Origin: Gemmatimonadales bacterium
Lineage (GTDB): Bacteria > Gemmatimonadota > Gemmatimonadetes > Gemmatimonadales > GWC2-71-9
Length of the DNA: 64,000 nucleotides
Assembly: GCA_035517615.1 (NCBI GenBank)
Contig: DATIYM010000018.1
Span: forward strand, 45,822 to 109,821
Reading direction: 5' to 3'
How positions within the stretch are numbered: position 1 is the stretch's first letter; each line of letters begins with the position of its first letter. Positions 37,633 through 53,075 of the stretch are shown here, in pieces. The position numbers and the translations under genes were made by a program. The notes beneath the pieces are model-generated. The model saw only the letters and a list, made by a program, of their open reading frames with translations, did not search any database and was not told the DNA's origin.

Positions 37633-38054
37633 GCGAACCGCTCCTCCAAAGCCGCGAAATCGAGAATCGGTACGAGTCCCGTCCCCTCCGCGCGATGCGC
37701 CACGCCGCTGGCCCAGGGAAGCGACTCTCCCGGCGGCACCGGGATGGCCCGTACGCGCACCACTTCCTCGGCATCGTCCACTTCGAAAGCGACGTAGCGC
37801 TCCCCCTCACCGATCTGCACCACGACTGTCGTCTGCCCCTGCGCTGCCGGGGGCGTCCGTCCGGCGCCGCCGAGCAGCGCGCCCAGGTGCACGAGCGGCA
37901 CGAGCCGACCGCGCCACGGGGTGAGACCGCGCATCGCATCGAGCGCCCGGGGCACGGACAGCACTTCCGCCCCGTCGTTGACCTCGAGCACCCGCACGAG
38001 CGGCAGGCCATACGGACGGCCTTCCGATCGCACCAGGAGATAGCCCTCGCTCAT
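37629..38054 (-). CDS. CheW-like protein (divergent)
   Basis: 141 aa. [21 protein letters not shown]...[20 protein letters not shown]...[11 protein letters not shown] has CheW topology. ATGA overlaps on both sides. Confidence 0.75.
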
Positions 38055-39145
38055 GGCGGCGCGACGCGTGGGGCTCGCACCAGCTCAACCACGCGTCCGG
38101 CAATGTGTGCCAGCGGCAGCACCGCGTCCGCGCCGCCGCCCTGCGCTGCCGCCACGGGCATGCCAGCGATCACCGACGACTCGCGATCCTGCGCGACGCC
38201 CCTGCCCCCGGCATCATGAATCGCCCGCAGCCCGGCCGCGCCGTCCCGACCCATTCCCGTCAACACGACGCCGACTGCACGGGAACCGAACAGCTCCGCG
38301 ACCGAGCGAAACAGGGGATCGGCGGCCGGGCGAACGCCCCATACCGGAGGGGATTGATCGAGGGCGAGTGCGGGACCGTCGGGCCCTTGGACCACGCGCA
38401 TATGATAATCTCCGGGGGCCACATAGGCGGTGTCCTCCACCACAGGCGCCCCGTGGTCACCCTCAACCACGCGGAGCGGACTCATCGAATCGAGCCGTTC
38501 CGCCAGACTGCGCGTGAATTTGGGCGGCATGTGTTGCGCAATCAGGACCGCCGCCCCAAGGCCGGCAGGCAGTCGGGGAATGAGCTCCGCCAGGGCCCGC
38601 GGCCCGCCCGTCGATGCGGCGATCGCGACGACGGCCCGCGCCCGGGGGCGAAGCTGCATCTCGGCCGGATGACGCACCGCGGCCGGCGGGCGGGCCATCA
38701 CCGAGACGTGCGAGAGGTCGGCGGCCAGCGCGCGCCTCACCGCGGCCACGAGCTCCGGCGCGATGTGCTCGAGCGGCGCCCGGCCGGAATCGGGGGGCTT
38801 GGCGACGATCTCGACGGCACCGAGCTCGAGCGCGCGGATCGCCGCCTGCGTGCCGGGTCCGGCGTGTGCGCTCACGACCACGATGGGGCGCGGGATCTCG
38901 GACATGATGTAGCCGATCGCGGCGAGCCCGTCGAGCTCGGGCATCTCGAGATCCATCGTGATCACGTCCGGCTCGTGCTGATGGACTTTGCGCACCGCGT
39001 CCAGCCCGTCGCGCGCGGTGCCGACGACGTCGAATTCCCCGGAGCCTTGCGGTCCCGCGAGCACGTCCGAAATCACCCGGCGCAGGAATGCGCTGTCGTC
39101 CACCACGAGCACCCGGGCCTTCCGGGCCTGGCGCTCAGATGACAC
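38051..39145 (-). CDS. cheB: protein-glutamate methylesterase/deamidase CheB (REC plus esterase)
   Basis: Trimmed to GTG 39145 ([23 protein letters not shown]). REC Asp in [14 protein letters not shown]. Esterase motifs [22 protein letters not shown]. Confidence 0.85.
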
Positions 39146-39635
39146 GAACGGGACATCCCACGGTACGCACCTCGACGCGGCCGTCCGCCACGAACATGTG
39201 CACCGAGCGGCCCGATCCGCCCCCCACGGCCTCCGCCGTGACCGGGATCGACGCATGGCGCAGCGCCTGCCGGGCCGCGACGATGTTGCGCTCGCCCATC
39301 TGGACCGATCCCGGTTGCATCAGCTGCGCAAACATGCTGGCCCCACCCGCAAGCTTGGCGACGACATGGCGCGGGTCGGCCCCGAGCTCCGCCACTCGTT
39401 CGAGCAGAAACGGCACCGCGGTCTCGGGGAATCGCGCCGGATTCGCGGCGTCGCGCGACAGGCTCCGGGATGGCAGGAGGATGTGCGCCATTGCGCCCAC
39501 TCGAGCCCCCGGATCGTGCAGCATGATTGCGACGCAGGAGCCGAGACCGAGGGTGACGAGCACCGCGTCGCCGCGATCCGCCGCCCATTCCCCCACGCGT
39601 ACCATGTGCTCACGACGCGCATCGGAGCGGTTCAT
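39135..39635 (-). CDS. cheD: chemoreceptor glutamine deamidase CheD
   Basis: Trimmed to ATG 39635 (ATGA with the cheR stop). [12 protein letters not shown]...AHILLP...KLAGGASMF. Confidence 0.85.
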
Positions 39636-40447
39636 TCGAGCCGACGGTAGATCCGCTCCCGCGGCTCCTCCAGCTTGAAGCGCTGCCGGACCTCGCCGAA
39701 CAGCGTCTCGACTTTTCCGAGCACGAGAATGCCGGCGGGAACGAGCGCGTCGGCGAACGCGCCGAACAGCCGCTCCTGGAGCGGCCGCTCGAAGTAGATC
39801 ATCACGTTGCGGCACACGATCAGGTCATACGGCGCCGCGGGCGGCGGCTCGGTCGTGAGATCGTGCCGGCGCACGCGCATCATGGTGCGCAGCCGCTCCA
39901 CGGCCTGGCGGGGCTCTACCGCGCTGAAGTACCGCGCGGCGAGCTCGCCGGGAATTTCTCCGAACGCGCTCGCCGGGAACGCCGCGGATTCCGTGCGCGC
40001 GATACTTTCGCGATCGAGATCCGTGGCATCGATGCGGGGCCGATCGAGCCAGCGTTCCTGTCCCTGGTGCCGCGCGGTCTCGGCGATCGCCACCGCGAGG
40101 CTGTAGGGCTCCTCGCCCGACGCGCAGCCCGCGGACCACACCCGAATCCGTCCTTCCCGCGCGTGCCACAGCTCGCGCAAGTAGACGGCCAGCGCCTCCC
40201 ACGTTTCGGCGTTGCGCCAGAACTTGGTGACATTGATGGTGAGCGTGTCGAGCAGCCGATCGTATTCGGTCGCGTCTTCGTCGAGCAGGCGCGCGTAGGC
40301 ACCGTAGGTATGGACGCCGCGTGCGCGCATGCGCACGGCCAGCCGCCGCCGAAAGCACTTGTGTTTATAGCTCTCGCAGCTGATGCCCCGGGCCAGCGAG
40401 ATCTTGCGGGTCAGCGCGTCGAATTCAGGATCCTGCGATGGAATCAC
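39632..40447 (-). CDS. cheR: chemotaxis protein methyltransferase CheR
   Basis: 271 aa. TINVTKFWRN, RVWSAGCASGEEPYSLA, DLIVCRNVMIYF. Confidence 0.85.
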   Translation of the reverse strand: MIPSQDPEFDALTRKISLARGISCESYKHKCFRRRLAVRMRARGVHTYGAYARLLDEDATEYDRLLDTLTINVTKFWRNAETWEALAVYLRELWHAREGRIRVWSAGCASGEEPYSLAVAIAETARHQGQERWLDRPRIDATDLDRESIARTESAAFPASAFGEIPGELAARYFSAVEPRQAVERLRTMMRVRRHDLTTEPPPAAPYDLIVCRNVMIYFERPLQERLFGAFADALVPAGILVLGKVETLFGEVRQRFKLEEPRERIYRRLE

Positions 40448-42060
40448 GACAGCGCGCTCAGCGTGTCGAGGTTCGCCTTCACGAGCTCATGCTTGGGATT
40501 CAGCTCGAGGGCTCTGCGCCAGAACATGGTGGCGAGGTCCCGGTCGTTCCGCTTGTAGGCGATGTTGCCAAGCTTGAAGTAAACATCGTCGCCCAGGTCG
40601 GGAGCGAGCTCGATGGCGCGGCTGTAGGCTTCCCACGCCTCGTCGTAGCGCGATCCCCGGTACGCGAGATCGCCTTGATTCTTCGAGAGCTGGGGCAGCG
40701 ACGGCTCGCTCTTCTTGGCGGTCTGGATCAATTCCTCGGCTTTTTCCAGATCCCCGGCGAGTTCGTGCAGCACCGCCATGTTGTTCTGCAGCACGGCATG
40801 CGAGGGGTATGCCTCCGCCCCTTCCTCCGCGATCTGATCGGCAAGCTCGAATTCGCCCGCCGAGGCGGCGGCGAGCCCGCGTGCCCAAAACCACACCGGC
40901 GGCGGCACGCCCTGGAACAGCTCGCGCGCGCGATCGAGCCGTCCGGCCGCGCTCGCGAAATCCCCCTGTTTCAGCGCGATGATTCCCCACCCGAGGAACG
41001 TGCGCGGATCGTTCTTCCCGCGCGCCGCGGCCTCGCTGTACGCCGCCTCCGCGTCGGGGAGCCGGCCGAGCTGCTCGTACGCGAGCGCGAGATTGTGCAG
41101 CACCGCGGGCTTGCCGCCGCCTTTCTCCGCGGCGAGCCGCAGCGCGTCCATCGCTTCCCGCCAGCGCGCCTGACGCAACCCCACCAGCCCGAGATAGAAA
41201 TGCGCGTGCGCATCGCCGGGCCGGAGCTCCGTCACCCGGCGGAACTCCCGCGCCGCCTCGTCGAGCATTCCCGTCTTGTAGAACGCGATGCCGAGATTGC
41301 GATGCTCCTCGACCCGCGCCTCCGTGAGCTGGGCATCATCGGACGGGGCGGTGCGTCCCGCCCGGTGCAGAAACCCCGCCGTAATGAGCCCGTACAGCGC
41401 CTTCCCGATCTCGAACTCGCCCAGCCCAGAATCTTCGATGATCTGGTTCACGTCCCGCGTGCCGTCGAGCAGCGGGAGAATTCGCTGCTGCGCGTCGGTC
41501 AGCTTTGCGTCGGAAATCGCGAGCCGGTCTTTGTCCACGATGAAAATCAGATCGAACGCCGGAATCTTCTTCTCGATCAGGCTCCATTCGTCCACGCGGC
41601 GCGCGCCTTCGAGCAGCAGCGACTCGGGATTGATGGAAACCAGGAAATCCTGCCGGTCGGCACGTACGTCGGCCTCGAAGTTGAACGTCCCCTGCGTCCA
41701 CGTGAACAGGTAATAGACGGATTCCTCGATCTGCACGCGCATATAACGCTCGAGATCGTCCTGGGTGATGACGTTCTGGCTGACGAGAATCTGCCCGAGC
41801 TTCTTGTCGCGCTGCTTGGATTGTCGATGGATGCCGGCGTCGAGCTGTTCCTGCGTGATCTTGCCGTGCTTGACGAGGATGTCGCCGAGGCGGTCGCGGC
41901 GGTTGACGATGGAGGCGTAGGAGATCCGCCCCTTCTCGAAGTAGATGTAGCCGAAGTTGGCCCGGTCGGCGATCGAGAGACACCCGGTCTTCTGCCCCAG
42001 CGAGAGCAGCTGCAGGACGTCCGGGAGCGAGGCCTCCTTGAGCGAACCCTTGATGGCCAC
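40444..42060 (-). CDS. DUF4388/PATAN-domain protein with tandem MshEN-like (T2SSE_N) motifs and C-terminal TPRs
   Basis: 538 aa. N-terminus GSLKEASLPDVLQLLSLGQKTGCLSI...GYIYFEKGRISYA is the DUF4388 signature. Then RLGDILVKHGKITQEQLDAGIHRQ-SKQRDK-KLGQILVSQNVITQDDLERYMRVQ, followed by TPRs. The GTG start directly abuts the upstream TAG. Confidence 0.7.
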   Translation of the reverse strand: MAIKGSLKEASLPDVLQLLSLGQKTGCLSIADRANFGYIYFEKGRISYASIVNRRDRLGDILVKHGKITQEQLDAGIHRQSKQRDKKLGQILVSQNVITQDDLERYMRVQIEESVYYLFTWTQGTFNFEADVRADRQDFLVSINPESLLLEGARRVDEWSLIEKKIPAFDLIFIVDKDRLAISDAKLTDAQQRILPLLDGTRDVNQIIEDSGLGEFEIGKALYGLITAGFLHRAGRTAPSDDAQLTEARVEEHRNLGIAFYKTGMLDEAAREFRRVTELRPGDAHAHFYLGLVGLRQARWREAMDALRLAAEKGGGKPAVLHNLALAYEQLGRLPDAEAAYSEAAARGKNDPRTFLGWGIIALKQGDFASAAGRLDRARELFQGVPPPVWFWARGLAAASAGEFELADQIAEEGAEAYPSHAVLQNNMAVLHELAGDLEKAEELIQTAKKSEPSLPQLSKNQGDLAYRGSRYDEAWEAYSRAIELAPDLGDDVYFKLGNIAYKRNDRDLATMFWRRALELNPKHELVKANLDTLSALS

Positions 42061-44004
42061 CTAGTGCAGCTCCTCGATCAATCGATCCGCGGGCGCCGGC
42101 CAGTCCCACACCATTTTTTCGCGGCTGCGGATGCCGCCGAGGCTCGAGACCACGAGCCCGCTCGTCCGGAGCGCGCCGCTCTTCCGATTGGGTTCGCGCT
42201 CGTGCCCCTCGAGCACCGCGCGCGCGAGCCCCACCGAGACGGACTGGTCCTGCGCGGCCGCCGCTCCGATCACGCGCTGCAGCAGTCCCTGCAGACCCCG
42301 CACCGAGTCCACCGGCCGGTCGGCTAAATACTCGAGCAGCGCCGAATCGCGATTCAACTGGTGCGTAACGAAGAGCCGCTCGAGCATCGCGCGACGGATT
42401 TCCCGGTCCGGCTCCATGATCTCGGCCACGAGTCCGCCTCCGAGGCGCGAGATCAGCCGTGCCTCCATTCCAGTGAGCTTGCTGGGATGCACCGGCGCGG
42501 TGAACAGGAGCTGACGTTCCTGATCGAGAAACAGATTGAACAGATTGAACAGCTCTTCCTGTGTCCGATCCTTCCCGGCGACGAGGTGGATGTCGTCGAG
42601 CAGCAGAGCGGTCGCGCGGCGGTAGCGTGCGCGCCACCACTCCACGCGATTCCCATTGATGGATGTGATCAATTCGTCGATGAACGTCTGCGTGGACAGG
42701 CACGCGACGACGGCGCCTGGCTGCTTGGCCAGCTCGAGTCCGACGCCGTGCAGGAGATGCGTTTTCCCCGACCCGCTCTTTCCGATGAACACGAGCGGGT
42801 TATACCGCTTGCCCGGTTGCTCGAGCACGGCGCGCGCGGCCGTGACCGCAACCTGATTCGCCGCCCCGGTGGCGTAATTCGCGAGCGGGAACGCGGCCGA
42901 TGGACCGTGCGGCGGCGCCGAACCGACGAGCACCTGCGACGCGGCCGCTTCCGCTTCGGTCATCCGCTCGGGATCGCGGAACAGGCTCTGGCCCGCGGCC
43001 TGCGGATCGAGCGCCGCCACCTCGTTCTCCAGGGTCCGGAGCCGCTCGACGTCGCGGGCAAATGCCGCGATCTCCGCATCGACCGCCGGCGGGGTGTCGC
43101 GCTCGAGCAGGACCTCGAGTCGATGGGTCCGGTAGCCCTCGCCCTCCCAGCGCAGGATGGCCTCGGCCACGCGAGCGCGCCATGCCTCCACGGCCTTCCC
43201 GACGGTGGCAGTCACGTCATCGAGGAACGATCCAAACTCGTCCGCCGAGCCCGCGACGCGAGCGGCCGCCGGCGGCGCCACCGCTCTCTCGAGTCCGAGC
43301 AGTTGCTTCGCGCCCTCCGCGTTGAGGGGCGTGTCGTTCACCGCCTGGTAGGCGACCATGCGGTTCAACGCGCCCATCAGCTCGCGCACGTTCGGGAATT
43401 CGGCCGTCGCCACCGTTTCGAGCACGCCGGGCTGGAAGTTCGCGCCCCGTTCCTCGGACTTGCGGCGCAGGATCGCTACGCGGGTCTCGTAATCGGGGAC
43501 GCCGATGTCGACCACCAGGCCCCCCGAGAACCGCGAGATGAGCCGCTCGTCGAGATCAGCGATCTCGGCCGGAGGGCGATCGCTCGTCAGCACGATCTGG
43601 TGGCCGCCGGACTGCAGCGCTTCGATCAGCCGCAGCAGCTCCGCCTGCATCTCCTTGCGGTTCGTGAGGAACTGCACATCGTCGATCAGCAGCACGTCGA
43701 CGTTCTGAAACCGGCGGCGAAACGCGTCTCCTTGCCCCGCCGCCACGGCGGCGTGGAACGCCTCGACGTATTCGTCCAGGCTCAGGTACTCGATGTTCAG
43801 ATTCGGAAACAGCTTCTTCGCGCTTTGTCCGATCGCCATCAACAGGTGTGTCTTGCCGAGGCCCGAGACGCTGTAGACGAACAGCGGGTTGTAAACCGTT
43901 CCCGGATTCTCGGCCACGGCGCGTCCCGCCGTTACCGCCAGGCGGTTGGCCGCGCCGACCACGCATGTCTCGAACGACAGCCGGGGATTGAGCGCCGTGG
44001 TCAT
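42061..44004 (-). CDS. tandem DnaA-type AAA+ ATPase (two domain-III modules; no domain I or domain IV)
   Basis: 647 aa. Module 1 (aa ~10-225): [91 protein letters not shown]. Module 2 (aa ~372-600): [86 protein letters not shown] overlap with the mglA stop. Confidence 0.75.
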
Positions 44005-44600
44005 GCGGTGGTCCCGGCGGACAGACGCTTCAGCACCAGCTCCGAGATCGCCTTGAGGGTCTCGAACACACCCCGGCCGTGGAGCGCGTCGGCGGGAAGG
44101 CTCGGGACCGCGCGGAAATTGAGCGCATCATCGAGCTCCGCCGGCTCGAGAATCAGCTCACGCGGCAGGTCCTGCTTGTTGTATTGCATGACGAGGGGGA
44201 GCGTGCGGACGTCGATCCCAAGCTCGAGCAGATTGCTCTGCAGGTTCTGCAGGCTTTCGACGTTCTCGTCGAGCTGCCGGGCCTGACTGTCCCCGACGAA
44301 CACCACGCCGTCCGCGCCCTGGAGCACGAGACGCCGCGTCGCGTTGTAATAGACCTGCCCCGGCACCGTGTACAGCTGGAACCGCGTGCTGAAGCCCGAG
44401 ATCTGACCCAGATCGATGGGGAGAAAATCGAAGAACAGCGTGCGATCGGTTTGCGTCGCGAGCGACACCATCCGTCCGCGCCGGGCCTCGGGGACGCGGC
44501 CGTAGATGTAGTGGAGATTGGTGGTCTTGCCCGATCGTCCGGGTCCGTAGTAGACGATCTTGCAGGTGATCTCGCGGGTCGTGAAGTTGACGAGGGACAC
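44001..44600 (-). CDS. mglA: Ras-like polarity/gliding GTPase MglA
   Basis: 199 aa, colinear with Myxococcus MglA as I recall it. [62 protein letters not shown]. The intrinsic Arg and catalytic Gln positions are conserved. Confidence 0.9.
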
Positions 44601-44603: not shown

Positions 44604-45074
44604 CTATCTCCCGAACAGCGTGTCGAGGCTGTCGCTCAGCTGGCGCTCGAAATCGGCCGCCAGCACCTGCTTCGGGACGCCGGTCTTGGGACTCGCCGCG
44701 TGCAGCTCCGTCCGGAGTTGCTCGAAAAATAACTGCACCAGCCCGATCGATGAAACGTCGAGGTCGTACACCACCAGAACCACCACCATGCCCTGATGGG
44801 TCGGCGCGTTCGCGAGAAAGATTCCGTGACGCTCTCCCTGGTGCGTGAGCGCGGCAAACGGCGGCTCGCCGAGTTGGCGCGCGATCTCGGTGGTCGACGC
44901 CACGATCGCCGAACTGAGTGCGGCCGCCGACATGACGTCGAGCGCGCGCGCGAAGCCATGCTGCGCCAGCACCTGCCCCGCGGGCGTCATCAGCAGCACC
45001 AGCCGCGCCGCAGCCTCCCCGACGAACTGCTTGAGGGGATCGAGCGTCCACGTCTCCACCGCGCGCGTGGTCAT
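44604..45074 (-). CDS. mglB: Roadblock/LC7 protein, MglB-like (putative MglA GAP)
   Basis: Trimmed to ATG 45074 (ATGA overlap). 156 aa. VLLMTPAGQVLAQHG...VVLVVYDLDVSSIGLVQL and a C-terminal acidic tail ...DSLDTLFGR parallel the MglB architecture. It lies directly upstream of mglA. Confidence 0.75.
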   Translation of the reverse strand: MTTRAVETWTLDPLKQFVGEAAARLVLLMTPAGQVLAQHGFARALDVMSAAALSSAIVASTTEIARQLGEPPFAALTHQGERHGIFLANAPTHQGMVVVLVVYDLDVSSIGLVQLFFEQLRTELHAASPKTGVPKQVLAADFERQLSDSLDTLFGR

Positions 45075-45418
45075 CCGACCAGCTCCGCGGCGCGCAGCAG
45101 CTCGAGCCGGACCAGTCCGACATTCACCTCCGTCTCGGCCACGGCCACGATGAGGACTCCCGACGGCGCGGGCACCACGAGCAGGGCACCTTCGGTGCAC
45201 TGCAGATGCCAGAACAGCGCGGCGCCGATGCCCCCCGCGGCCATCGCGCGCGACAGCCGGTTCGCGAGGCTGCCGGCGAGCGCCGCCACGGCAGGACCCT
45301 TGATGCCCTCCATCAGCTGCTCGGCGACCACCAATCCATCCGTTGCGGAGACGAGCATCGCGCCCCGGACGCCCCGGACTCGCGTGACGAGATCGAGCGC
45401 ACGCACATAGCCGCTCAT
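45071..45418 (-). CDS. Roadblock/LC7 domain protein
   Basis: 115 aa. LDLVTRVRGVRGAMLVSATDGLVVA...ALLVVPAPSGVLIVAVAETEVNVGLVRLEL is a canonical Roadblock pattern. Confidence 0.75.
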   Translation of the reverse strand: MSGYVRALDLVTRVRGVRGAMLVSATDGLVVAEQLMEGIKGPAVAALAGSLANRLSRAMAAGGIGAALFWHLQCTEGALLVVPAPSGVLIVAVAETEVNVGLVRLELLRAAELVG

Positions 45419-46302
45419 GCCTGTCGCTCCAGCCAGCGGGCGGCAACCTGTGCCGCGCGCTGCGCGATGATCGCGAGCCGCCCCATGGGCACCGCGCGAT
45501 CGCGGATGATCAGCAGCAACGTTTGCGCGCTCGGTTGGGCCAGATGGACGTGTCCGCTCACACCTTCGGCGGCAAGACCGGTCCAGGTGCCGAGCCCTAC
45601 GAGCTTCGCGGTCCGGGCGGCTTCCTGTGACACGCCGGCCAGGTACGCCGCCACGGGAGCGGTGACGTCGTTTCCCGAGCCATCCCGCAATGCGCCGCCC
45701 AGCACCTGGCCCGAGCCGTCGAGCAGCAGCAATCCTTCCTGCGCGCCCTCGAGCCCCGCGAATACGCGCTGCTCGTCGAGTGGACCAGACGACGCGGCCG
45801 GAGCCGGCGGCGGCGTCGGCGCCGGTGCGGCAGAGCTCGGGGGCGCCGGAGCGGCGGGCACGGCAGCGCTCTCGAATCCCAGTCCCGCCGCCGCCGCCCC
45901 CGCATCGCCGCCCTGCACCATGGCCACGGCCTGCGCGATGGTGGGATCGCTCGGCGAGTGGCGTTGCGCCGCCTCGAGGTGCGCGGCGGCCTGCTCCACG
46001 TCACCGACCTTGAAATACAGAAACGCGAGTCCTTTCAGCGCGCCCACGTGCGTGGGCGCGATCCGGAGCGTCATGTCCCATTCGTCGAACGCGCGCTCGA
46101 AATCGCGCTTGTCGGCCAGGATCCGCGCGTAGAGGTCGTGCGCATCCGCGAGATGCGGGTGCCTCTCGAGCCCCGAGAGAGCCACCCGATGCGCCGCATC
46201 GAGCTGGCCCTTGTGGCGCAGCAGCTCGCCCAAGCGCAGGAACACGAGACTCGTGGGGTCCTGGGCGAGCTGCGCGGACAACGACTTCACGTCCTCAGCC
46301 AT
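45415..46302 (-). CDS. TPR - Pro/Ala linker - Roadblock/LC7 fusion protein
   Basis: ATG 46302 (MAEDVKSL) overlaps the upstream stop by 8 nt. N-terminal TPRs, then a linker AVPAAPAPPSSAAPAPTPPPAPAASS. The C-terminus GLLLLDGSGQVLGG...LLLIIRDRAVPMGRLAII is Roadblock-like. Confidence 0.65.
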   Translation of the reverse strand: MAEDVKSLSAQLAQDPTSLVFLRLGELLRHKGQLDAAHRVALSGLERHPHLADAHDLYARILADKRDFERAFDEWDMTLRIAPTHVGALKGLAFLYFKVGDVEQAAAHLEAAQRHSPSDPTIAQAVAMVQGGDAGAAAAGLGFESAAVPAAPAPPSSAAPAPTPPPAPAASSGPLDEQRVFAGLEGAQEGLLLLDGSGQVLGGALRDGSGNDVTAPVAAYLAGVSQEAARTAKLVGLGTWTGLAAEGVSGHVHLAQPSAQTLLLIIRDRAVPMGRLAIIAQRAAQVAARWLERQA

Positions 46303-47452
46303 GCTGCACCCCCGCACGGCCCAAGGTCAGCGCCGCGGCTTTCGCCTGCTGAACTTCTTCGACGCGAGCCGCCTCCGCGGGGCCATGCGGCGTGAGCCGT
46401 TCCCAATGCTCCCATTGTTCGACGGCTTCACCGAAGCGGCCGATCGCCGCGAGCGCGTGCCCCAGCAGGCGGTGCGCCGCCGCGAGCCGTGGGTCGAGCC
46501 GCACCCCCTGCCGCAGCGCCGTCACGGCCTCCGCCGGCCGTCCCGCCGCGAGCTGGACGCGGCCCAGCAGCAGGTGAATCGCCGCATTCTCGGGGTGCGC
46601 AGCGGCCGCCTGCTCGGCGGCCGCCCGCGCCTCCTGGTGGTCATGGCGTGCCAGCGCCGCCTCGGTGCCCGCCAAGAGCTCCGCGAGCTCGGCGGCCGAC
46701 CCGCCTCCCGGGCGCTCGCGCGCCGCCGCCCCGGGATCGATGAGCAGAATCACGCCGGCGCTCTCGAGTCCGAACAGCGTCTTCGCGACGTCGAAATCCG
46801 AGCGGCCGAGCTGCCGCGCGATGGTGCGCACGTCACGCGTCGAGTCGATCATCGCCAGGACTTCCCATTCCGCCGGAAGCAGATCGAGCGCCGGGCTGGT
46901 GCCCGACGACAGCGCCGCCAGATGCGGCACGACGCCGACGTGCGGAACGCGCTTCTCGATCCGCGACCATTCGTCGATGCGGCGCGCGCCCTCCATGAGG
47001 AGCGCCTCGGTTCGAATCCGCACCACGGCGCGCATCGCCACGTCCGGCCCCGGCTCTTCGCTGAACGAGAAGAACCCCTCGTTCCAGCTCATGACTTCGA
47101 ACACGACTTCCTCGATCTGAAAGCGCACCTGGCGCTCCACGTCGCGCGGCGTGACCGCGCCCATCTCCACGAGGATTTCGCCCAGTCGGCGCGCGTCGCC
47201 TTTCGTCTGCAGCTCGCGCGCGCGCTCGAGGTCCGATTCGGTGATCTTGCCGGTGCGGACGAGCAGTGTGCCGATCTGGTGCGGGTTGCTCCGCATCTCG
47301 GCGAACACCACCGCGCCTTCGTCGAAGTAGATCTTGCCGTCGTTCAACCGCAGATCCGACGTGACGCGCAGCACGCCCGTCTTCCGGCTCAGGTCGAGCA
47401 GCTGGAAGACGTCGTGAATCCCGAGCTCGCGTAGCGGTCCTTCGATCGGCAT
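46295..47452 (-). CDS. DUF4388/PATAN-domain protein with tandem MshEN-like motifs and C-terminal TPRs (paralog of 40444..42060)
   Basis: 385 aa. GPLRELGIHDVFQLLDLSRKTGVLRV...GKIYFDEGAVVFA, then QIGTLLVRTGKITESDLERARELQ-TKGDAR-RLGEILVEMGAVTPRDVERQVRFQ, then Ala-rich TPRs. Confidence 0.7.
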   Translation of the reverse strand: MPIEGPLRELGIHDVFQLLDLSRKTGVLRVTSDLRLNDGKIYFDEGAVVFAEMRSNPHQIGTLLVRTGKITESDLERARELQTKGDARRLGEILVEMGAVTPRDVERQVRFQIEEVVFEVMSWNEGFFSFSEEPGPDVAMRAVVRIRTEALLMEGARRIDEWSRIEKRVPHVGVVPHLAALSSGTSPALDLLPAEWEVLAMIDSTRDVRTIARQLGRSDFDVAKTLFGLESAGVILLIDPGAAARERPGGGSAAELAELLAGTEAALARHDHQEARAAAEQAAAAHPENAAIHLLLGRVQLAAGRPAEAVTALRQGVRLDPRLAAAHRLLGHALAAIGRFGEAVEQWEHWERLTPHGPAEAARVEEVQQAKAAALTLGRAGVQHG

Positions 47453-47455: not shown

Positions 47456-50146
47456 TCAGGCCGCTTCCGAGGTGAAGATGTGCGCCAGGTCGAGCGCGGT
47501 ACGCGCGTGCGCCCGGGCACGCTGCGCGTAGGGGCCGCTGGGATCGAGCCGCGTCACTTTCTCCCACGCCTCGACGGCCTCCGCGTAGCGATGCGCCAGC
47601 GCGAGGGCGACGCCCAGCTGGAACCACGCCTCGACGTGCTCGGCGTCGAACTTGAGCACGCGGCGGAACGCCTCGCGCGCCGCCTCGGCCCGCTTGTCGT
47701 CCAACAGCGCCCGACCCAGCAGCAGCAGCGCCTTCAAATCGTACGGGTCGTCCTCGAGCATGCTCGCGAGGCGCGCGATTGCCTCCCGCAGCCGCCCGAT
47801 GCGGCGCAACAGATCGGCGCGGGCGAGCGCCGCCTCGTAAAATGTCGGCAGGACGTCCAGCGCCCGATCGTACGACCGCTCGGCCTCGCCCCAGTCCTCG
47901 CGCTGCTCGTGCAGCCGGCCCAGCTCGAGCCACACCTGCCCGTATCCCGGATCGAGCTCGAGCGCGGCGCGATAGGCGGCGAGCGCGCCCGTCCGATCTC
48001 CCACCTTCGCGGCGACATCGCCTTGCAGCTTGCGGAGGTCGGCGCGCTGGGGCGCGCGGGTCTGCGCCCGTCCCAGCACCGTGAGCGCGCCGGCGGCATC
48101 GCCACCCGCGGCCCGGCCCTTGGCGACCACGACCAGCGCCTCCACGTCGTCCGGCGTGCGCTCGAGCAGCTGCTCCGCGAGCCCCCGCGCTTCTTCGTCG
48201 CGTCCCAGGCTGAACAGCGCTTTCACCTCGCCGAGCAACGCGTCGCTGCGCGCGCCGTTTGTCGACCGCGCTTCGCGATAGCGCTCGAGCGCCTCGCCGT
48301 GCAGCCCGCGCCGCGCGAAGATCTCGCCCAGGAGCACCGAGGCATCGACGGGATCAGCGCCGCGCTGCACGGCGCGCACGGCCTCGGCGGCCGCGAGATC
48401 CATCAATCCCTTGCTCACGTAGTCGCGCGCGAGCTCGAGCGGGTCGTCCGCGCTCCGCGGGGGCTCAGGCCCGGCCGGCGCAGGCTCGAGCTCCTGGAAG
48501 ATGTTGTCCAGGAGTCGCTGATCGAACGAGAAGTCCTCGCCCAGGGCTTCGGTCTGCACGTCGGCCGAGATTTCGGGAGCGATGCCGATGGTCGTCTTCT
48601 CGAACTGCAAATCGATGCTCAACGCGAACTTCTGCGAGACGTAATACGGATCGATCTCGAGTGCGCGCTTCGTCGCGCGCAACGCGCCCTCGAAGTCGCC
48701 GAGATTCGAGAGCGTGAAGCTCAGGTTGTAGTGCGCGCCCGCGTGCGCCGGGTCGGCTTCCACCGCGCGCACGAAGGCGTTGCGCGCGTCGGTGAACCGC
48801 TTCATCTCGACGAGCACGAGCCCGACGCCATTCCACGCCGGCGCCGATCCCGGCTGATCGGCGAGCATCTGCCGGTACGCTTCGAGCGACAGCTGAAAGC
48901 GCCGCAGCTGGTACAGGAGCAGGGCGAGATTGAGCCGCGCCGCGGCGAATCCGCGCTCGAGCTGCAGCGCTTTGCGAAATGCCTCGATCGCCTGTTCGGT
49001 ATCCGATTGGTGCGTGAGCACCACGCCCAGGTTGTTCCATGCGAGCGCGTAGCGCGCATCGATGTCCACGGCCTGGCGATAGGAGGTGAGCGCGTCGGCC
49101 ATGCGGCCGGCCTGGTGCAGCACGACGCCGTGTTCGTTCCACAGCTTGGGGGAATCGGGAATCTCGCGCAGCAGGGTTTCGTACAGTTCGAGCGCGGCCC
49201 CGAGATCGCGCTTCAGCAGATGCACCTCGGCCATCGCCTGCAGCGTGAGCCGCCGATCCTCGCCGCGGTCCAGCGCGAGGCGATATTCGCGCAGCGCCTC
49301 GTTGTAATAGCCCTTCTGCCGGAACGCGAGCCCGAGGTTGTAGTGCGCCAGCTCCTTGCTCTCGGCCAGCCCCGGCTCCGGAGCGTTCTGCTGGCGCAGC
49401 GCGTCGCTCTTACGCTCGGCGTTGTAGCGCTCGAGCGAGAGATTGGTCTGCGCGCGGGCCAGCGGCGGGTTGAGCTCGATGGCGCGCTTCGATGCCACGC
49501 GCGCGTCCTGGTGCCGCCCCAGGTCGCCCAGGACGAACGCCATCAGGTAGTGCACGTTCGCGTTGTCGGGATTGAGACTCACGGCGCGCTCGAGCGCCGC
49601 GAGTGCGTCGCCGTTCAGCCCGCGGGCGTAATAGACCTCTGCGAGATAGAAATGCACCACGCTCGACTCGGGATCGAGCTCGCAGGCGCGCTGAAACCAG
49701 TCGGTGGCCACATCCATCCGCCCGCGGTTCTTCTCGGCCAGCCCGAGCTGAATGATGGCGGCGACGTCGTCGGGCCGGCGTGCGAGCAGCTCCTCGAACT
49801 CTCCCGCCGCGTCCTCGTGCTGCCCGAGAATCGCGTACGCGCGCCCGAGCTCCCAGCGTGCGTCGCGGTCGTCCGGTGAATGGCGCAGCCGCTCGCCCAG
49901 CTCAGCCACGCGGCGGTCGTAGAACCCCGTGTCATTATGGGCGATCTCGAGGTTGCGCTGAGCGACCTGCATTTTGGGATCGAGCTCGAGCGCGCGCGTG
50001 AATTCCGCGATGGCTTCCGGAACGAGCCCCTTGCGGTAATAGAGGACCCCGAGGTTGTTATGCGCCCCGGCGTCCGACGGATCGATCCGGCGGGCAAACG
50101 ATCGGAGGGCGGCGAGGTCGCGTTCGGAGAGCGCCGGCGCCGTCAT
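47456..50146 (-). CDS. large TPR-repeat protein (896 aa)
   Basis: TPR consensus (W..LG..Y...G....A...Y..AL.LDP) recurs end to end, roughly 20 repeats by eye. No signal peptide or TM segment noticed. Confidence 0.75.
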   Translation of the reverse strand: MTAPALSERDLAALRSFARRIDPSDAGAHNNLGVLYYRKGLVPEAIAEFTRALELDPKMQVAQRNLEIAHNDTGFYDRRVAELGERLRHSPDDRDARWELGRAYAILGQHEDAAGEFEELLARRPDDVAAIIQLGLAEKNRGRMDVATDWFQRACELDPESSVVHFYLAEVYYARGLNGDALAALERAVSLNPDNANVHYLMAFVLGDLGRHQDARVASKRAIELNPPLARAQTNLSLERYNAERKSDALRQQNAPEPGLAESKELAHYNLGLAFRQKGYYNEALREYRLALDRGEDRRLTLQAMAEVHLLKRDLGAALELYETLLREIPDSPKLWNEHGVVLHQAGRMADALTSYRQAVDIDARYALAWNNLGVVLTHQSDTEQAIEAFRKALQLERGFAAARLNLALLLYQLRRFQLSLEAYRQMLADQPGSAPAWNGVGLVLVEMKRFTDARNAFVRAVEADPAHAGAHYNLSFTLSNLGDFEGALRATKRALEIDPYYVSQKFALSIDLQFEKTTIGIAPEISADVQTEALGEDFSFDQRLLDNIFQELEPAPAGPEPPRSADDPLELARDYVSKGLMDLAAAEAVRAVQRGADPVDASVLLGEIFARRGLHGEALERYREARSTNGARSDALLGEVKALFSLGRDEEARGLAEQLLERTPDDVEALVVVAKGRAAGGDAAGALTVLGRAQTRAPQRADLRKLQGDVAAKVGDRTGALAAYRAALELDPGYGQVWLELGRLHEQREDWGEAERSYDRALDVLPTFYEAALARADLLRRIGRLREAIARLASMLEDDPYDLKALLLLGRALLDDKRAEAAREAFRRVLKFDAEHVEAWFQLGVALALAHRYAEAVEAWEKVTRLDPSGPYAQRARAHARTALDLAHIFTSEAA

Positions 50147-50771: not shown

Positions 50772-50785
50772 GTAGGCCGCCCTTC

Positions 50786-52711: not shown

Positions 52712-52712
52712 G

Positions 52713-53075
52713 TTAGCCGAGCACTCGCTGCACCGCTTCGAGCACCCGTGAAGGTTGGAACGGCTTGACGACGAAGTCCTTGGCGCCGGCCTGAATCGCC
52801 TCGACGACGAGCGCCTGCTGGCCCATGGCGCTGCACATCAGAATCTTGGCGTCGGGATCCTGGCGGACGATTTCGCGCACCGCGTCGATGCCGCCCATAT
52901 CCGGCATGACAATATCCATGGTGACCAGATCGGGTCGGAGCTGGCGGTATTTCTCCACCGCCTGCGCGCCCGTCTCCGCTTCACCAACCACCTCGAACCC
53001 GGCCTGAGCCAGGATATCGCTGATCATCGTCCGCATGAAGATCGCGTCATCGCAGACGAGGACAGTGTGATTCAC
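52713..53075 (-). CDS. cheY: chemotaxis response regulator CheY
   Basis: 120 aa single REC domain. VLVCDDAIFMR, LVTMDIVMPDMGG, conserved Lys in KDFVVKPF. Confidence 0.9.
   Translation of the reverse strand: MNHTVLVCDDAIFMRTMISDILAQAGFEVVGEAETGAQAVEKYRQLRPDLVTMDIVMPDMGGIDAVREIVRQDPDAKILMCSAMGQQALVVEAIQAGAKDFVVKPFQPSRVLEAVQRVLG

What the first reader, a model, noticed from the sequence alone, without database searches (positions are those of the whole stretch)
42061..44004. Duplicated DnaA-type AAA+ protein without a DNA-binding domain, translationally coupled to mglA
The 647-aa product contains two copies of the DnaA domain-III signature. These are GAANxxAVTAxRAV, YNPLF/V, a GKTHLL Walker A, a hhhDDhxh Walker B, and RLISRxxGGLVxxIxxPDxExRxAhL. 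The copies are separated by an Ala/Glu-rich linker of ~140 aa.

Module 1 keeps the box VII TSDRPP (arginine finger) and sensor-II-like [11 protein letters not shown]. Module 2 has FTAPVHP in place of SDR, so it has probably lost the arginine finger. That would give an asymmetric pseudo-dimer.

There is no DnaA domain I and no domain IV helix-turn-helix, so this is not a replication initiator. Its ATG overlaps the mglA stop (ATGA), and its TAG directly abuts the GTG of the next PATAN-TPR gene. It is therefore stoichiometrically tied to a small GTPase.

I am not aware of a DnaA/Hda-like ATPase being described as a partner of a Ras-like GTPase polarity switch.
Basis: partly seen in the sequence, partly recalled or inferred. 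Interest (0 to 1): 0.85.

Follow-up and report, generated by a model that had tools for sequence, protein, structure and literature searches.

The report
Tandem DnaA-like ATPase in polarity operon
A conserved protein, so far named only from Gemmatimonadota (one divergent clade carries a different, unverified label), is built from two copies of the ATPase core of the replication initiator DnaA, has no DNA-binding domain, and sits inside a chemotaxis/MglA cell-polarity operon always next to a PATAN-TPR signalling protein, so it looks like an initiator ATPase reused as a signalling switch and is routinely mislabelled as DnaA.

Summary
ORF 42061-44004 (-) encodes 647 aa with two DnaA domain-III AAA+ modules (Pfam E=4e-96; 34% identical to each other). 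It has no domain I or IV. Its start overlaps the mglA stop (ATGA) and its stop abuts the next gene.

Two details were wrong:
- TSDRPP is sensor I, not the arginine finger. Both modules keep the finger (R158, R520); module 2 lost only the sensor I aspartate (P504).
- The "Ala/Glu linker" is mostly a conserved helical domain (pLDDT 86, dN/dS 0.17). A conserved C-terminal motif (EKMVWxWP..DRLIEE) follows module 2.

The family spans at least 185 species-level genomes and dozens of 50%-identity clusters. Every member whose source names an organism is Gemmatimonadota, except one divergent clade labelled Cloacimonetes.

mglA is immediately upstream in 74/74 close loci and in relatives down to 34% identity. 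The invariant neighbour is instead the PATAN-TPR protein, which carries an MshE-type c-di-GMP motif. Some lineages keep only DD plus PATAN-TPR or Che plus PATAN, without MglA, and one variant is fused to a receiver domain.

Best reading: an ATP-gated switch or scaffold of a PATAN/TPR-Che-MglA polarity module, not a replication initiator. Function is untested. I found no published description in the held library. New variant of a known kind.

The parts
42061..44004 (-). DD gene: 647-aa tandem DnaA-domain-III protein (module 1, middle domain, module 2, tail)
   Evidence: ORF. Two PF00308 matches, E=4.4e-96. AF2 model pLDDT 79.9. Best fold match B. subtilis DnaA domain III, TM 0.88.
43297..44004 (-). 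Module 1 (aa 1-236). DnaA-type AAA+ with Walker A K51, Walker B D108/D109, sensor I D142, box VII R154/R158 (arginine finger) and sensor II R207. The ssDNA H/B-motif positions are changed (H84, E118).
   Evidence: TIGR00362 272 bits, profile positions 102-335. dN/dS 0.13.
43243..43296 (-). Disordered Ala/Pro-rich spacer (aa 237-254)
   Evidence: pLDDT below 50 for 240-265. Low conservation. dN/dS 0.49.
42925..43242 (-). Family-specific helical middle domain (aa ~255-360) with motifs DEFxxFL, WR..ILRWxxEGxRTxRLExLL and FRDPDR
   Evidence: Conserved in relatives down to 33% identity (G290 57/58, P345 56/58). Modelled alone at pLDDT 86, pTM 0.69. No Pfam or NCBIfam hit. No PDB fold match (best E=3.7). 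No similarity to DnaA domain IV (HHalign 0.2%). dN/dS 0.17.
42205..42888 (-). Module 2 (aa 373-600). DnaA-type AAA+ with Walker A K414, Walker B D470/D471, box VII R516/R520 and sensor II R569. Sensor I Asp is replaced (TAPV, P504). E. coli-like ssDNA-contact residues are kept (I446, K478, R480).
   Evidence: TIGR00362 211 bits against Hda 94. dN/dS 0.24.
42064..42168 (-). Conserved C-terminal tail motif (aa 613-647): [30 protein letters not shown]. Predicted disordered, so probably a short linear binding motif.
   Evidence: K630 55/58, W635 57/58, P636 47/58, E644 45/58 among family representatives. pLDDT below 50. dN/dS 0.17, against ~1.6 for the preceding 601-612. Absent where a REC domain is fused instead (P0219).
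44001..44600 (-). mglA (199 aa), Ras-like polarity GTPase. Its stop overlaps the DD start by 4 nt.
   Evidence: E=3.5e-72 to M. xanthus MglA 5ymx over the full length. Junction.
44604..45074 (-). mglB-like Roadblock/LC7 protein (156 aa from the ATG at 45074)
   Evidence: Robl_LC7 E=1.2e-6. Start assignment.
45071..45418 (-). Second Roadblock/LC7 protein (115 aa)
   Evidence: Robl_LC7 E=9.8e-7.
45415..46317 (-). TPR protein with a weak C-terminal Roadblock-like region (300 aa)
   Evidence: TPR families, and Robl_LC7 E=0.0016 below cut-off.
46295..47452 (-). PATAN(DUF4388)-TPR protein 1, carrying an MshE-type c-di-GMP motif
   Evidence: DUF4388 E=2.8e-32. NF053729 44.5 bits, above the cut-off of 38.
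47456..50146 (-). Large TPR protein (896 aa)
   Evidence: Multiple TPR families.
50151..53666 (-). Upstream che genes: CheW (53085-53666), CheY (52713-53075), CheA (50786-52711), CheC/X (50151-50771)
   Evidence: Pfam.
40444..42060 (-). PATAN(DUF4388)-TPR protein 2 (538 aa), carrying an MshE-type tandem c-di-GMP motif at aa 57-110. This is the invariant neighbour of DD.
   Evidence: DUF4388 E=1e-39. NF053729 54.3 bits, above the cut-off of 38. Immediately downstream of DD in 74/74 loci and in distant or minimal loci.
36254..40447 (-). Downstream che genes: CheR (39632-40447), CheD (39135-39815, start uncertain), CheB (38051-39256, start uncertain), CheW (37629-38054), CheW (37114-37632), TPR protein (36254-37114)
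   Evidence: Pfam. Junctions.

Best explanation
I call the 42061-44004 product DD. It is the founding type of a protein family, found so far essentially in Gemmatimonadota, in which two DnaA-type (initiator-clade) AAA+ ATPase modules are joined by a family-specific helical domain and end in a conserved C-terminal peptide.

It is not a replication initiator. It most likely works as an ATP-gated switch or assembly scaffold inside a cytoplasmic signalling complex. The core of that complex is the adjacent PATAN-TPR protein, a predicted c-di-GMP receptor. In most Gemmatimonadota the complex also includes MglA, the MglB/Roadblock proteins and a Che pathway.

Shown:
- The architecture.
- Invariant P-loop lysines and Walker B aspartates in both modules.
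- Largely conserved sensor II arginines and arginine fingers.
- Purifying selection on all four conserved parts.
- Constant adjacency to a PATAN protein, and frequent but dispensable adjacency to mglA and che genes.
- A natural fusion to a receiver domain.

Inferred:
- Both modules bind ATP.
- The two modules, or modules of neighbouring molecules, pair head to tail as DnaA protomers do, so that an arginine finger completes the neighbour's ATP site. The module 2 finger is the better conserved.
- The nucleotide state controls assembly with PATAN-TPR. The disordered tail possibly docks on a TPR or PATAN surface.
- CheY-P, MglA-GTP and c-di-GMP feed into this assembly, which sets the polarity or activity of a motility apparatus, probably type IV pili.
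For: Architecture and clade.

ATP-site conservation across 58 family representatives:
- Walker A Lys and Walker B Asp: 58/58 in both modules.
- Sensor II Arg: 54/58 and 49/58.
- Arginine finger: 39/58 (module 1) and 49/58 (module 2).

Family-specific middle domain and tail, conserved and under purifying selection.

Context:
- mglA upstream 74/74 and PATAN-TPR downstream 74/74 in close loci.
- The same operon in relatives at 39-55% identity and at 34-36%.
- A minimal DD + PATAN-TPR pair without MglA or Che (P0214; P0267).
- Che-TPR-PATAN-DD without MglA (P0192).
- A DD-REC fusion in a hybrid-kinase/Hpt/REC cluster (P0219).
- Both PATAN proteins pass the MshE-type c-di-GMP motif model (motif definition in PMC5013675).
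- Unrelated MshEN-fused DnaA-module proteins lie in a type IV pilus cluster.

No replication context: no DnaA domain I or IV anywhere in 1.6 Mb of DD loci, and only 1 of the 74 other loci from the metagenome scan (mostly ordinary dnaA) has an mglA hit.

Rate: DD modules average 35-37% identity to one another, against 60% among canonical DnaA domain III from many phyla. They are therefore not under initiator-type constraint.
Against: - Nothing here is biochemical. ATP binding, oligomerisation and every protein contact are inferred.
- All characterised initiator-clade AAA+ proteins (DnaA, DnaC/DnaI, IstB, Orc/Cdc6) act on DNA, so a DNA-free role would be unprecedented. Module 2 keeps E. coli-like ssDNA-contact residues in the majority of members (I446 32/58, R480 38/58).
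- Module 1 in this clade is still very DnaA-like: HMMER E=2e-56 to B. subtilis DnaA domain III and 44% identity in the structural alignment. That would also suit an interaction with DnaA.
- The output (type IV pili or polarity) is guessed from what MglA, PATAN and MshEN do in other organisms. No pilus or flagellar gene lies in the 64-kb window.
- The relative orientation of the two modules in the model is uncertain (pTM 0.44).
- Synteny within one phylum is partly inherited and is weaker evidence than independent co-occurrence.
Confidence: 0.5

Rival explanations
1. MglA-specific partner. DD is a dedicated regulator or effector of the MglA GTPase (a GEF, co-GAP, effector or localisation factor) and is made in fixed proportion with it.
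For: - mglA is immediately upstream with a 4-nt overlap.
- This holds in 74/74 close loci and in relatives at 34-55% identity.
- MglA stays ~80% identical across these loci while DD diverges.
- No RomR/RomX-type regulator was seen in the operon.
Against: - Family members with intact middle domain or tail exist with no mglA or Roadblock gene nearby: P0192, P0214, P0267, P0219.
- The 4-nt overlap is shared by six other junctions in the operon, so it is not specific.
- The constant neighbour is PATAN, not MglA.
Confidence: 0.2
2. Replication coupler. DD uses its DnaA-like modules to co-assemble with, cap, or stimulate ATP hydrolysis by the genuine DnaA. That would be Hda-like or dominant-negative action, placing replication initiation under the control of chemosensory and polarity signals.
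For: - Both modules score best against the DnaA model.
- Module 1 is very close to DnaA domain III (E=2e-56; TM 0.88) and retains the box VII arginines used for DnaA-DnaA contacts.
- The operon sits directly upstream of the dcw division cluster.
- Established knowledge: Hda inactivates DnaA through an arginine finger.
Against: - About a third of the family has lost the module 1 arginine finger, and a quarter its sensor I Asp.
- DD modules evolve much faster than DnaA (35-37% against 60% mean identity). That is hard to reconcile with an interface to a slowly evolving DnaA.
- Hda-specific features are absent: Hda model below cut-off, and no clamp-binding motif by eye.
- Every conserved neighbour or fusion partner is a signalling protein (PATAN, TPR, Che, MglA, REC, Hpt) and none is a replication protein.
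- The position next to dcw is simply inherited along with the flanking ileS/rluD genes.
Confidence: 0.12
3. DNA- or nucleoid-binding positioning ATPase. Like other initiator-clade AAA+ proteins, DD binds DNA through its AAA+ modules in the ATP state. It uses the nucleoid or ssDNA as a matrix to position the signalling complex, or it acts in DNA uptake. By analogy, ParA-like ATPases encoded in che operons position chemosensory arrays.
For: - Module 2 keeps the residues equivalent to the E. coli ssDNA-binding H/B motifs (I446, K478, R480), and they are conserved in the majority of the family.
- The two helices between beta2 and beta3 that form the initiator-specific motif are predicted in both modules.
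- The gene is encoded inside a che operon.
- Established knowledge: all characterised relatives (DnaA, DnaC, IstB, Orc/Cdc6) bind DNA.
Against: - Module 1 has replaced these residues (H84, E118).
- Conservation of the module 2 residues is only 55-65%.
- There is no dedicated DNA-binding domain.
- No DNA-uptake genes lie nearby.
- The analogy to ParA-type positioning rests on my own knowledge, not on any test here.
Confidence: 0.1
4. Decaying duplicate or annotation artefact. On this reading it is a degenerate dnaA paralogue with no function of its own.
For: It lacks the initiator's DNA-binding and helicase-loading domains. Sensor I is degenerate in module 2.
Against: - Full-length orthologues occur in at least 185 species-level genomes and in dozens of 50%-identity clusters.
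- dN/dS is 0.13-0.24 in all conserved parts.
- P-loop and Walker B residues are invariant.
- The family has its own conserved domains.
Confidence: 0.01

Closest known systems
DnaA, chromosomal replication initiator (domain III AAA+ module; TIGR00362 / PF00308)
   Same: Both modules are DnaA-clade AAA+ domains. They score best against the DnaA models (272 and 211 bits). The fold matches B. subtilis DnaA domain III (TM 0.88, RMSD 2.5 A). The Walker A, Walker B, box VII and sensor II residues are aligned and conserved.
   Different: - No domain I/II (helicase and partner binding) and no domain IV (DnaA-box binding).
- Two ATPase modules in one chain, plus a family-specific helical domain and tail.
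- Encoded in a che/mglA/PATAN operon, not next to dnaN.
- Evolves much faster than DnaA.
- It passes the DnaA equivalog cut-off only because two partial hits are summed.
Hda / HdaA (DnaA-related regulatory inactivator of DnaA; TIGR03420)
   Same: A DnaA-derived AAA+ protein lacking domains I and IV that is not itself an initiator. It retains an arginine finger. NCBI names the family 'DnaA/Hda family protein'.
   Different: - Hda is a single ~230-aa module with an N-terminal clamp-binding motif.
- Here the Hda model scores below its cut-off (165.7 against 194.8 for the whole protein; 78 and 94 bits per module) and always below the DnaA model.
- No clamp-binding motif was seen, and there is no replication context.
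DnaC/DnaI helicase loaders and IstB (other initiator-clade AAA+ proteins)
   Same: The same AAA+ clade. These are single-purpose ATP switches that assemble into open helical oligomers rather than closed unfoldase rings.
   Different: Scores are far below the family cut-offs (IstB 51 and 44 bits against a cut-off of 200; DnaC 17-23 bits against 357). There is no helicase- or transposase-interaction domain.
Known MglA partners in Myxococcus xanthus (MglB, RomR/RomX, MglC/RomY, SgmX, FrzS) and the Frz chemosensory input
   Same: The operon combines a genuine MglA, Roadblock proteins, TPR proteins and a Che pathway. This matches the logic of Frz acting on the polarity module (PMC4316618; PMC10329633 and PMC7668184 abstracts).
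   Different: None of the known partners is an AAA+ ATPase, and DD has no sequence similarity to any of them. Here the components are physically clustered in one operon together with PATAN proteins.
PATAN-domain regulators (PatA-type response regulators; cyanobacterial PATAN-REC proteins that bind the type IV pilus motor)
   Same: A PATAN protein is the constant neighbour of DD. Genes for PATAN proteins were already known to lie near mglA/mglB (PMC4316618). The Gemmatimonas aurantiaca entry 'PATAN>MglA>-PATAN>' shows the same layout, with an unnamed gene in the DD position.
   Different: No AAA+ partner of PATAN proteins has been described in the papers searched. Here PATAN is fused to TPR repeats rather than to a receiver domain.
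Tandem (type II) AAA+ ATPases such as p97/Cdc48 and NSF
   Same: Two AAA+ modules in one polypeptide, possibly with divided labour between a more and a less catalytic site.
   Different: A different AAA+ clade. The fold search hits them only through generic AAA similarity (RMSD ~29 A, 14-16% identity). DD has the initiator-type helical insertion and no evidence for a closed hexamer or pore loops.

Membership tests
DnaA (chromosomal replication initiator) | AAA+ domain III of the DnaA type (PF00308) with Walker A/B, sensor I, box VII arginine finger and sensor II | tested here: met
   Two copies. Module 1 has all the motifs. Module 2 lacks only the sensor I Asp.
DnaA (chromosomal replication initiator) | C-terminal domain IV helix-turn-helix that binds DnaA boxes (PF08299) | tested here: not met
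   No Pfam or NCBIfam hit. TIGR00362 is matched only at profile positions 102-337 of 437. HHalign of the middle domain or the tail against 57 domain IV sequences gives probability 0.2%. Middle-domain fold search finds nothing. tblastn finds no domain IV in the window or in 95 DD loci.
DnaA (chromosomal replication initiator) | N-terminal domain I (PF11638) for helicase loading and self-interaction | tested here: not met
   No hit. The ORF cannot extend upstream. Module 1 starts at residue 3. tblastn is negative.
DnaA (chromosomal replication initiator) | Typical genomic context (dnaA-dnaN, near oriC) and being the genome's initiator | tested here: inconclusive
   The context is a che/mglA/PATAN operon next to the dcw cluster, with no dnaN. 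I could not show directly that the same genomes carry a separate canonical dnaA (led nowhere).
Hda / HdaA | Single DnaA-like AAA+ module scoring above the TIGR03420 or HdaA cut-offs | tested here: not met
   Whole protein 165.7 bits against a cut-off of 194.8. Modules score 78 and 94 bits, each lower than its DnaA score.
Hda / HdaA | N-terminal beta-clamp-binding motif (QL[SD]LF / QLxLxL type; from my own knowledge) | tested here: not met
   The N-terminus is [15 protein letters not shown], with no such motif. This was inspection only, not a profile test.
DnaC/DnaI/IstB helper ATPases | Score above the family cut-offs, plus the partner-binding N-terminal domain | tested here: not met
   IstB 51 and 44 bits (cut-off 200). 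DnaI 26-37 bits (cut-off 228). DnaC 17-23 bits (cut-off 357).
Proposed new family 'DD' (tandem DnaA-III with middle domain and tail) | Two DnaA-type modules with P-loop Lys and Walker B Asp, the DEFxxFL...RW..EG.RT.RLE / FRDPDR middle domain, and the EK...WxWP...EE C-terminal motif | tested here: met
   The window protein has all of these. They are shared by 58 representatives down to 33% identity.
Proposed new family 'DD' (tandem DnaA-III with middle domain and tail) | Adjacent PATAN-domain gene | tested here: met
   The window gene 40444-42060 abuts DD. 74/74 close loci. Distant loci. The exception is the REC-fused P0219.
MglA (Ras-like polarity GTPase), for the upstream gene | Full-length similarity to characterised MglA, including the TDRTLFFDF and LYTVPGQ signatures | tested here: met
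   E=3.5e-72 to M. xanthus MglA 5ymx and E=2.2e-69 to T. thermophilus MglA 3t12. Both signatures are visible in the alignment.

The most novel reading that the evidence does not exclude
The DnaA-derived modules still recognise the cell's real DnaA. DD would then physically couple a chemosensory/MglA polarity switch to chromosome replication initiation, by capping DnaA filaments or triggering DnaA-ATP hydrolysis when the polarity module is in a given state. That would make it an Hda-like device wired to a small GTPase and to c-di-GMP. The evidence disfavours this (fast-evolving modules, arginine finger of module 1 lost in a third of the family, purely signalling neighbours) but does not exclude it for the clade of this window, where module 1 remains very close to genuine DnaA domain III.
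Probability: 0.1. Interest if true: 0.9.

Novelty: new variant of a known kind. Interest (0 to 1): 0.62.

Why it matters
- **A new use for an initiator ATPase.** Initiator-clade AAA+ ATPases (DnaA, DnaC, IstB, Orc/Cdc6) are known only as DNA-handling machines. A phylum-wide family that has dropped the DNA-binding domain, doubled the ATPase core, gained its own domains and moved into a chemotaxis/MglA/PATAN operon suggests this module can serve as a general nucleotide-gated assembly switch in signal transduction.
- **A new component for the polarity field.** It adds an ATPase to the GTPase-centred MglA polarity paradigm, and it gives PATAN proteins, whose mechanism is poorly understood, a candidate enzymatic partner.
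- **An annotation problem.** The family passes the DnaA equivalog score by summing two partial hits, and IMG calls it "chromosomal replication initiator protein DnaA". Gemmatimonadota genomes may therefore appear to have two dnaA genes, and origin-prediction pipelines could be misled.
- **Testability.** A cultured strain, Gemmatimonas aurantiaca T-27, appears to carry the same arrangement, which makes the question experimentally testable.

Tried and rejected
1. **Middle domain or tail as a degenerate DnaA domain IV.** Rejected. HHalign probability is 0.2% for both, there are no Pfam or NCBIfam hits, and there is no PDB fold match.
2. **Module 2 as Hda-derived and module 1 as DnaA-derived (chimera).** Not supported. 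Both modules score best against DnaA. An NJ tree places each module in its own group, but with weak bootstrap support (42%, 66%; joint clade 20%), so the order of duplication is unresolved. The first attempt at this tree timed out.
3. **P0194 (III-III-IV architecture) as an evolutionary intermediate.** Rejected. It is a singleton on a 2.6-kb contig whose relatives are proteobacterial DnaA, so it is probably a chimeric assembly.
4. **Finding the Gemmatimonadota canonical dnaA, to rule out 'only dnaA'.** Unresolved.
   - The canonical DnaA I traced to a contig, P0240, lies on a 35% GC contig, so it is not Gemmatimonadota.
   - Literature searches gave nothing usable.
5. **Metagenome scan with the family alignment.** It chose a generic P-loop pattern, so only 6 of 80 loci were family members. 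I used the other 74 as a negative control for mglA linkage.
7. **The giant MshEN-DnaA proteins (P0203, P0205) as family members.** Rejected. They lack the middle domain and the tail. I treat them as a separate, parallel recruitment.
8. **The ATGA overlap as evidence of a special MglA-DD stoichiometry.** Rejected, because the same coupling runs through the operon.


Full report

Yes. The minus-strand ORF 42061..44004 encodes 647 aa and begins at the first start codon after an in-frame stop, so no N-terminal extension is possible.

- Pfam gives two Bac_DnaA (PF00308) matches (E=4.4e-96) and no DnaA_N or Bac_DnaA_C.
- NCBIfam matches the DnaA equivalog TIGR00362 only over profile positions 102-337 of 437, which is domain III alone, and does so twice.
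- The two halves align with each other at 34% identity (E=1e-38).
- Module 1 aligns with the B. subtilis DnaA domain III structure at E=2e-56.
- An AlphaFold model (pLDDT 79.9) superposes on that structure with TM 0.88 and RMSD 2.5 A.
- The junctions are as described. The ATG overlaps the mglA TGA by 4 nt, and the TAG is directly followed by the GTG of the next gene.
- The upstream gene is a genuine MglA: E=3.5e-72 over its full length to M. xanthus MglA, with the TDRTLFFDF and LYTVPGQ signatures.
- The downstream gene is a DUF4388/PATAN-TPR protein.

**2.

I aligned both modules with E. coli DnaA (translated from NC_000913) and B. subtilis DnaA.

| E. coli DnaA residue | Role | Module 1 | Module 2 |
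|---|---|---|---|
| D269, in TSDR | sensor I | D142 | P504 |
| R281, in RLxSRF | box VII | R154 | R516 |
| R285, in RLxSRF | arginine finger | R158 | R520 |
| R334 | sensor II | R207 | R569 |

PMC7561715 confirms that R285 in box VII is the arginine finger.

So module 2 has not lost its arginine finger. It has lost the sensor I aspartate (TSDR becomes TAPV). Walker A and Walker B are intact in both modules.

The residues that contact single-stranded DNA in E. coli DnaA (V211, K243, R245) are H84, R116 and E118 in module 1. In module 2 they are I446, K478 and R480.

**3. The 'linker' is mostly a domain, and there is a tail**

- Among 78 close orthologues, mean column conservation is 0.90 (module 1), 0.79 (residues 237-372), 0.84 (module 2) and 0.78 (tail).
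- Residues ~255-360 are predicted helical. Modelled alone they give pLDDT 86 and pTM 0.69.
- dN/dS against 30 orthologues:

| Region (aa) | Median dN/dS |
|---|---|
| Module 1 (1-236) | 0.13 |
| Spacer (237-254) | 0.49 |
| Middle domain (255-360) | 0.17 |
| Module 2 (373-600) | 0.24 |
| Spacer (601-612) | ~1.6 |
| Tail (613-647) | 0.17 |

- The middle domain has no Pfam or NCBIfam match and no significant PDB fold match (best E=3.7). It shows no profile similarity to DnaA domain IV (HHalign 0.2%).
- The tail (…[10 protein letters not shown]…DRLIEELH) is predicted disordered but is among the best conserved features of the whole family: K630 55/58, W635 57/58.

**4. How big is the family, and whose is it?**

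- A word-indexed search returned more than 100 clusters at 72-98% identity, all 643-658 aa.
- A scan of one genome per species found 185 relatives. The 80 kept are 67-80% identical and nearly all are labelled Gemmatimonadota or Gemmatimonadales.
- An exhaustive HMMER search of 1.84 billion representatives found dozens of 50%-identity clusters of ~640-700 aa that match residues 1-646 in a single stretch at 33-55% identity. The four-part architecture is therefore ancient within the group.
- All named members are Gemmatimonadota. The exception is one divergent clade whose closest named relative is labelled 'Candidatus Cloacimonetes bacterium 4572_55'. That MAG label is unverified.
- Sources call the protein 'DnaA/Hda family protein', 'AAA family ATPase' or, wrongly, 'chromosomal replication initiator protein DnaA'. 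The last name follows from the summed score of the two modules (479.7 bits) exceeding the DnaA equivalog cut-off (343.9). Neither module does so alone (272 and 211 bits).

**5. Which AAA+ clade?**

Each module scores far better against DnaA than against Hda (78 and 94 bits), IstB (51 and 44), DnaI or DnaC. A neighbour-joining tree of 22+22 modules, 58 canonical domain III sequences and E. coli Hda puts each module type in its own group. Support is weak (42% and 66%; joint clade 20%), so I draw no conclusion on the order of events.

A robust result from the same alignment concerns rate. Canonical DnaA domain III sequences from many phyla are on average 60% identical. DD modules are only 35-37% identical to one another. 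They are not under initiator-like constraint.

Across 58 full-length representatives:

| Feature | Module 1 | Module 2 |
|---|---|---|
| Walker A Lys | 58/58 | 58/58 |
| Walker B first Asp | 58/58 | 58/58 |
| Sensor II Arg | 54/58 | 49/58 |
| Arginine finger | 39/58 | 49/58 |
| Sensor I Asp | 43/58 | 27/58 |

Nucleotide binding in both modules is evidently selected. Catalytic completeness varies by lineage.

**6. Context in the window**

The gene lies in an 18-gene minus-strand operon. In order of transcription:

1. CheW, CheY, CheA, CheC.
2. A large TPR protein, PATAN-TPR, TPR-Roadblock, Roadblock, MglB.
3. MglA, DD, PATAN-TPR.
4. CheR, CheD, CheB, CheW, CheW, TPR.

- Three junctions have uncertain start calls: PATAN1→TPR-Roadblock (-23 nt), CheR→CheD and CheD→CheB. 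Every other junction lies between -4 and +14 nt, and seven of them, including mglA-DD, are 4-nt overlaps. The overlap with mglA is therefore not a special tie.
- Both PATAN proteins pass NCBI's model for the MshE-type tandem c-di-GMP-binding motif (54.3 and 44.5 bits, cut-off 38; motif defined in PMC5013675).
- The operon sits between ileS-dksA/traR-lspA-rluD and the dcw division cluster.
- No MCP, pilus or flagellar gene lies in the 64 kb.

**7. Context elsewhere**

In the 80 close loci, mglA is immediately upstream in 74/74 and the PATAN-TPR gene immediately downstream in 74/74 of those with enough flanking sequence. More distant members:

| Member(s) | Identity to the window DD | Context |
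|---|---|---|
| L082-L087 | 38-82% (local tblastn segments) | Same operon in L082 and L084-L086. L083 and L087 are short contigs showing only mglA-DD-PATAN2. MglA is 78-88% identical where full length. |
| P0172, P0202 | 35-36% | PATAN-TPR, TPR, Roadblock, Roadblock, MglA, DD |
| P0163 | 34% | Same chromosomal slot. The operon has no CheA, CheW, CheR, CheD or CheB but keeps CheY, CheC, TPR, PATAN, Roadblock, MglA, DD and PATAN-TPR. |
| P0214 | about 40% | Same slot (ileS, rluD … Peptidase_MA), holding only DD and PATAN-TPR |
| P0267 | 34% | DD, PATAN-TPR, TPR, behind thiamine genes |
| P0192 | 33% (49% GC) | CheY, CheA, AAA, CheW, CheC, TPR, PATAN, DD, with no MglA or Roadblock |
| P0219 | 37% | The tail is replaced by a receiver domain. 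The gene sits among a hybrid kinase, a REC-HD protein and two Hpt-REC pairs. |

As a control, only 1 of the 74 other loci from the metagenome scan, which are mostly ordinary dnaA, shows an mglA hit.

The pattern is a nested one. PATAN (or a receiver domain) is the constant companion. MglA/Roadblock and the Che proteins are frequent but dispensable additions.

No DnaA domain I or IV is encoded anywhere in 1.6 Mb of these loci.

**8. Mechanism**

What is shown:

- The architecture.
- The conserved nucleotide-binding residues.
- The family-specific domains under purifying selection.
- The gene associations and fusions.

What I infer:

- DD is an ATP-gated switch or scaffold that works with the PATAN-TPR protein.
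- By analogy with DnaA, whose ATP form assembles head to tail with the arginine finger completing the neighbour's site, the two modules probably pair within one chain or between chains.
- The disordered, conserved tail looks like a docking peptide. It is missing exactly where a receiver domain is fused instead. TPR or PATAN surfaces are the obvious receptors.
- Inputs would be CheY-P, MglA-GTP and c-di-GMP.
- The output is probably polarity or activity of a motility machine. This last step rests on what MglA, PATAN and MshEN do in other bacteria (PMC4316618; bioRxiv 10.1101/2021.06.11.447907; PMC5013675) and on the parallel case below. It does not rest on anything in the window.

I put about 0.5 on this overall picture, and about 0.9 on the narrower statement that DD is not the replication initiator.

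**9. Rivals**

- **MglA-specific regulator or effector (0.2).** Fits most genomes but not the MglA-less lineages.
- **Coupler to DnaA and replication (0.12).** Attractive because module 1 here is so DnaA-like. The fast divergence, the frequent loss of the module 1 finger and the purely signalling neighbourhood argue against it.
- **DNA- or nucleoid-binding positioning ATPase (0.1).** Consistent with the biology of the clade and with the retained ssDNA-contact residues in module 2, which are only 55-65% conserved.
- **Decaying paralogue (0.01).** Excluded by conservation and dN/dS.

**10. Comparison with what is known, and novelty**

The closest families are DnaA (domain III only) and Hda. Membership of either fails on defining features that I tested. 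Domains I and IV are absent, the Hda model scores below its cut-off, and there is no clamp motif or replication context.

No paper in the held library links a DnaA-type ATPase with MglA, PATAN or MshEN. The 2014 survey of prokaryotic small GTPases lists Gemmatimonas aurantiaca GAU_1409 as 'PATAN>MglA>-PATAN>'. The unnamed gene in that entry is in the DD position. I have not seen that strain's sequence, so the assignment is by position only.

I classify this as a new variant of a known kind. It is a DnaA/Hda-superfamily ATPase with a new architecture and a new, non-replicative context.

**11. Limits**

- I could not verify directly that DD-carrying genomes also have a canonical dnaA.
- The relative orientation of the modules is uncertain (pTM 0.44).
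- Synteny inside one phylum is partly inherited.
- No interaction or activity has been measured.

Noticed in passing
L166:2486-23973 (GCA_030620115.1, JAUXFG010000024.1): A type IV pilus cluster (prepilin peptidase, PilB-like MshEN-T2SSE, PilT, PilC, PilS) contains four consecutive MshEN-domain proteins. Three of them carry DnaA-type AAA+ modules (983 aa, 398 aa and the 1990-aa P0203 with two modules). They lack the DD middle domain and tail, so this looks like a second, independent recruitment of DnaA-type modules to c-di-GMP/pilus signalling.
   Followed up: partly
L162:4444-11691: P0219 is a DD protein whose C-terminal tail is replaced by a receiver domain. It sits between a PAS hybrid histidine kinase, a REC-HD protein and two Hpt-REC pairs, with no mglA or PATAN gene nearby.
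   Followed up: partly
window 46295-47452 and 40444-42060 (both minus): Both PATAN(DUF4388)-TPR proteins pass NCBIfam NF053729, the MshE-type tandem c-di-GMP-binding motif, within what the PATAN literature calls the alpha-helical insertion of the domain. In the 40444-42060 protein the second repeat is slightly degenerate (Asn at the conserved Gly position), so binding is predicted, not certain.
   Followed up: partly
window 36254-53666 (minus): The che gene set is nearly complete (CheA, CheY, three CheW, CheC, CheD, CheR, CheB), but no methyl-accepting chemoreceptor gene lies anywhere in the 64-kb window.
   Followed up: no
window 44604-46317 (minus): Three Roadblock-type proteins precede mglA: a 156-aa MglB-like protein, a 115-aa Roadblock protein, and a 300-aa TPR protein with a weak C-terminal Roadblock match. 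This is reminiscent of multi-component Roadblock GAP complexes described for Myxococcus.
   Followed up: no
window 17618-32857 (minus) and L167:1-19950: The operon occupies a conserved chromosomal slot between ileS-dksA/traR-lspA-rluD and a TPR/Peptidase_MA pair followed by the dcw cluster (rsmH, ftsI, murE, murF, mraY, ftsW, ftsQ, ftsA, ftsZ). The slot is kept even in lineages where the operon has shrunk to two genes.
   Followed up: partly
window 42061-44004; database names: The family passes the TIGR00362 DnaA equivalog cut-off only by summing two partial domain-III hits. IMG names it 'chromosomal replication initiator protein DnaA'. This is a systematic misannotation that could suggest a second dnaA in these genomes.
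   Followed up: yes
L163:2035-2853: In the MglA-less lineage (P0192) the che operon carries a 272-aa P-loop protein with weak nSTAND/AAA_22 matches between cheA and cheW. The window operon has no counterpart.
   Followed up: no
P0194 (ENA contig of 2656 bp): A 673-aa protein with an extra DnaA domain III in front of a normal III-IV unit. It is a singleton whose relatives are proteobacterial (Nevskiales-type) DnaA, so it is probably an assembly chimera.
   Followed up: yes
window 2318-3421, 3418-4689, 9206-10336, 13785-16013 (all minus): Four sizeable ORFs with coding-like GC3 or length (367, 423, 376 and 742 aa) have no Pfam match at E<=1e-5.
   Followed up: no
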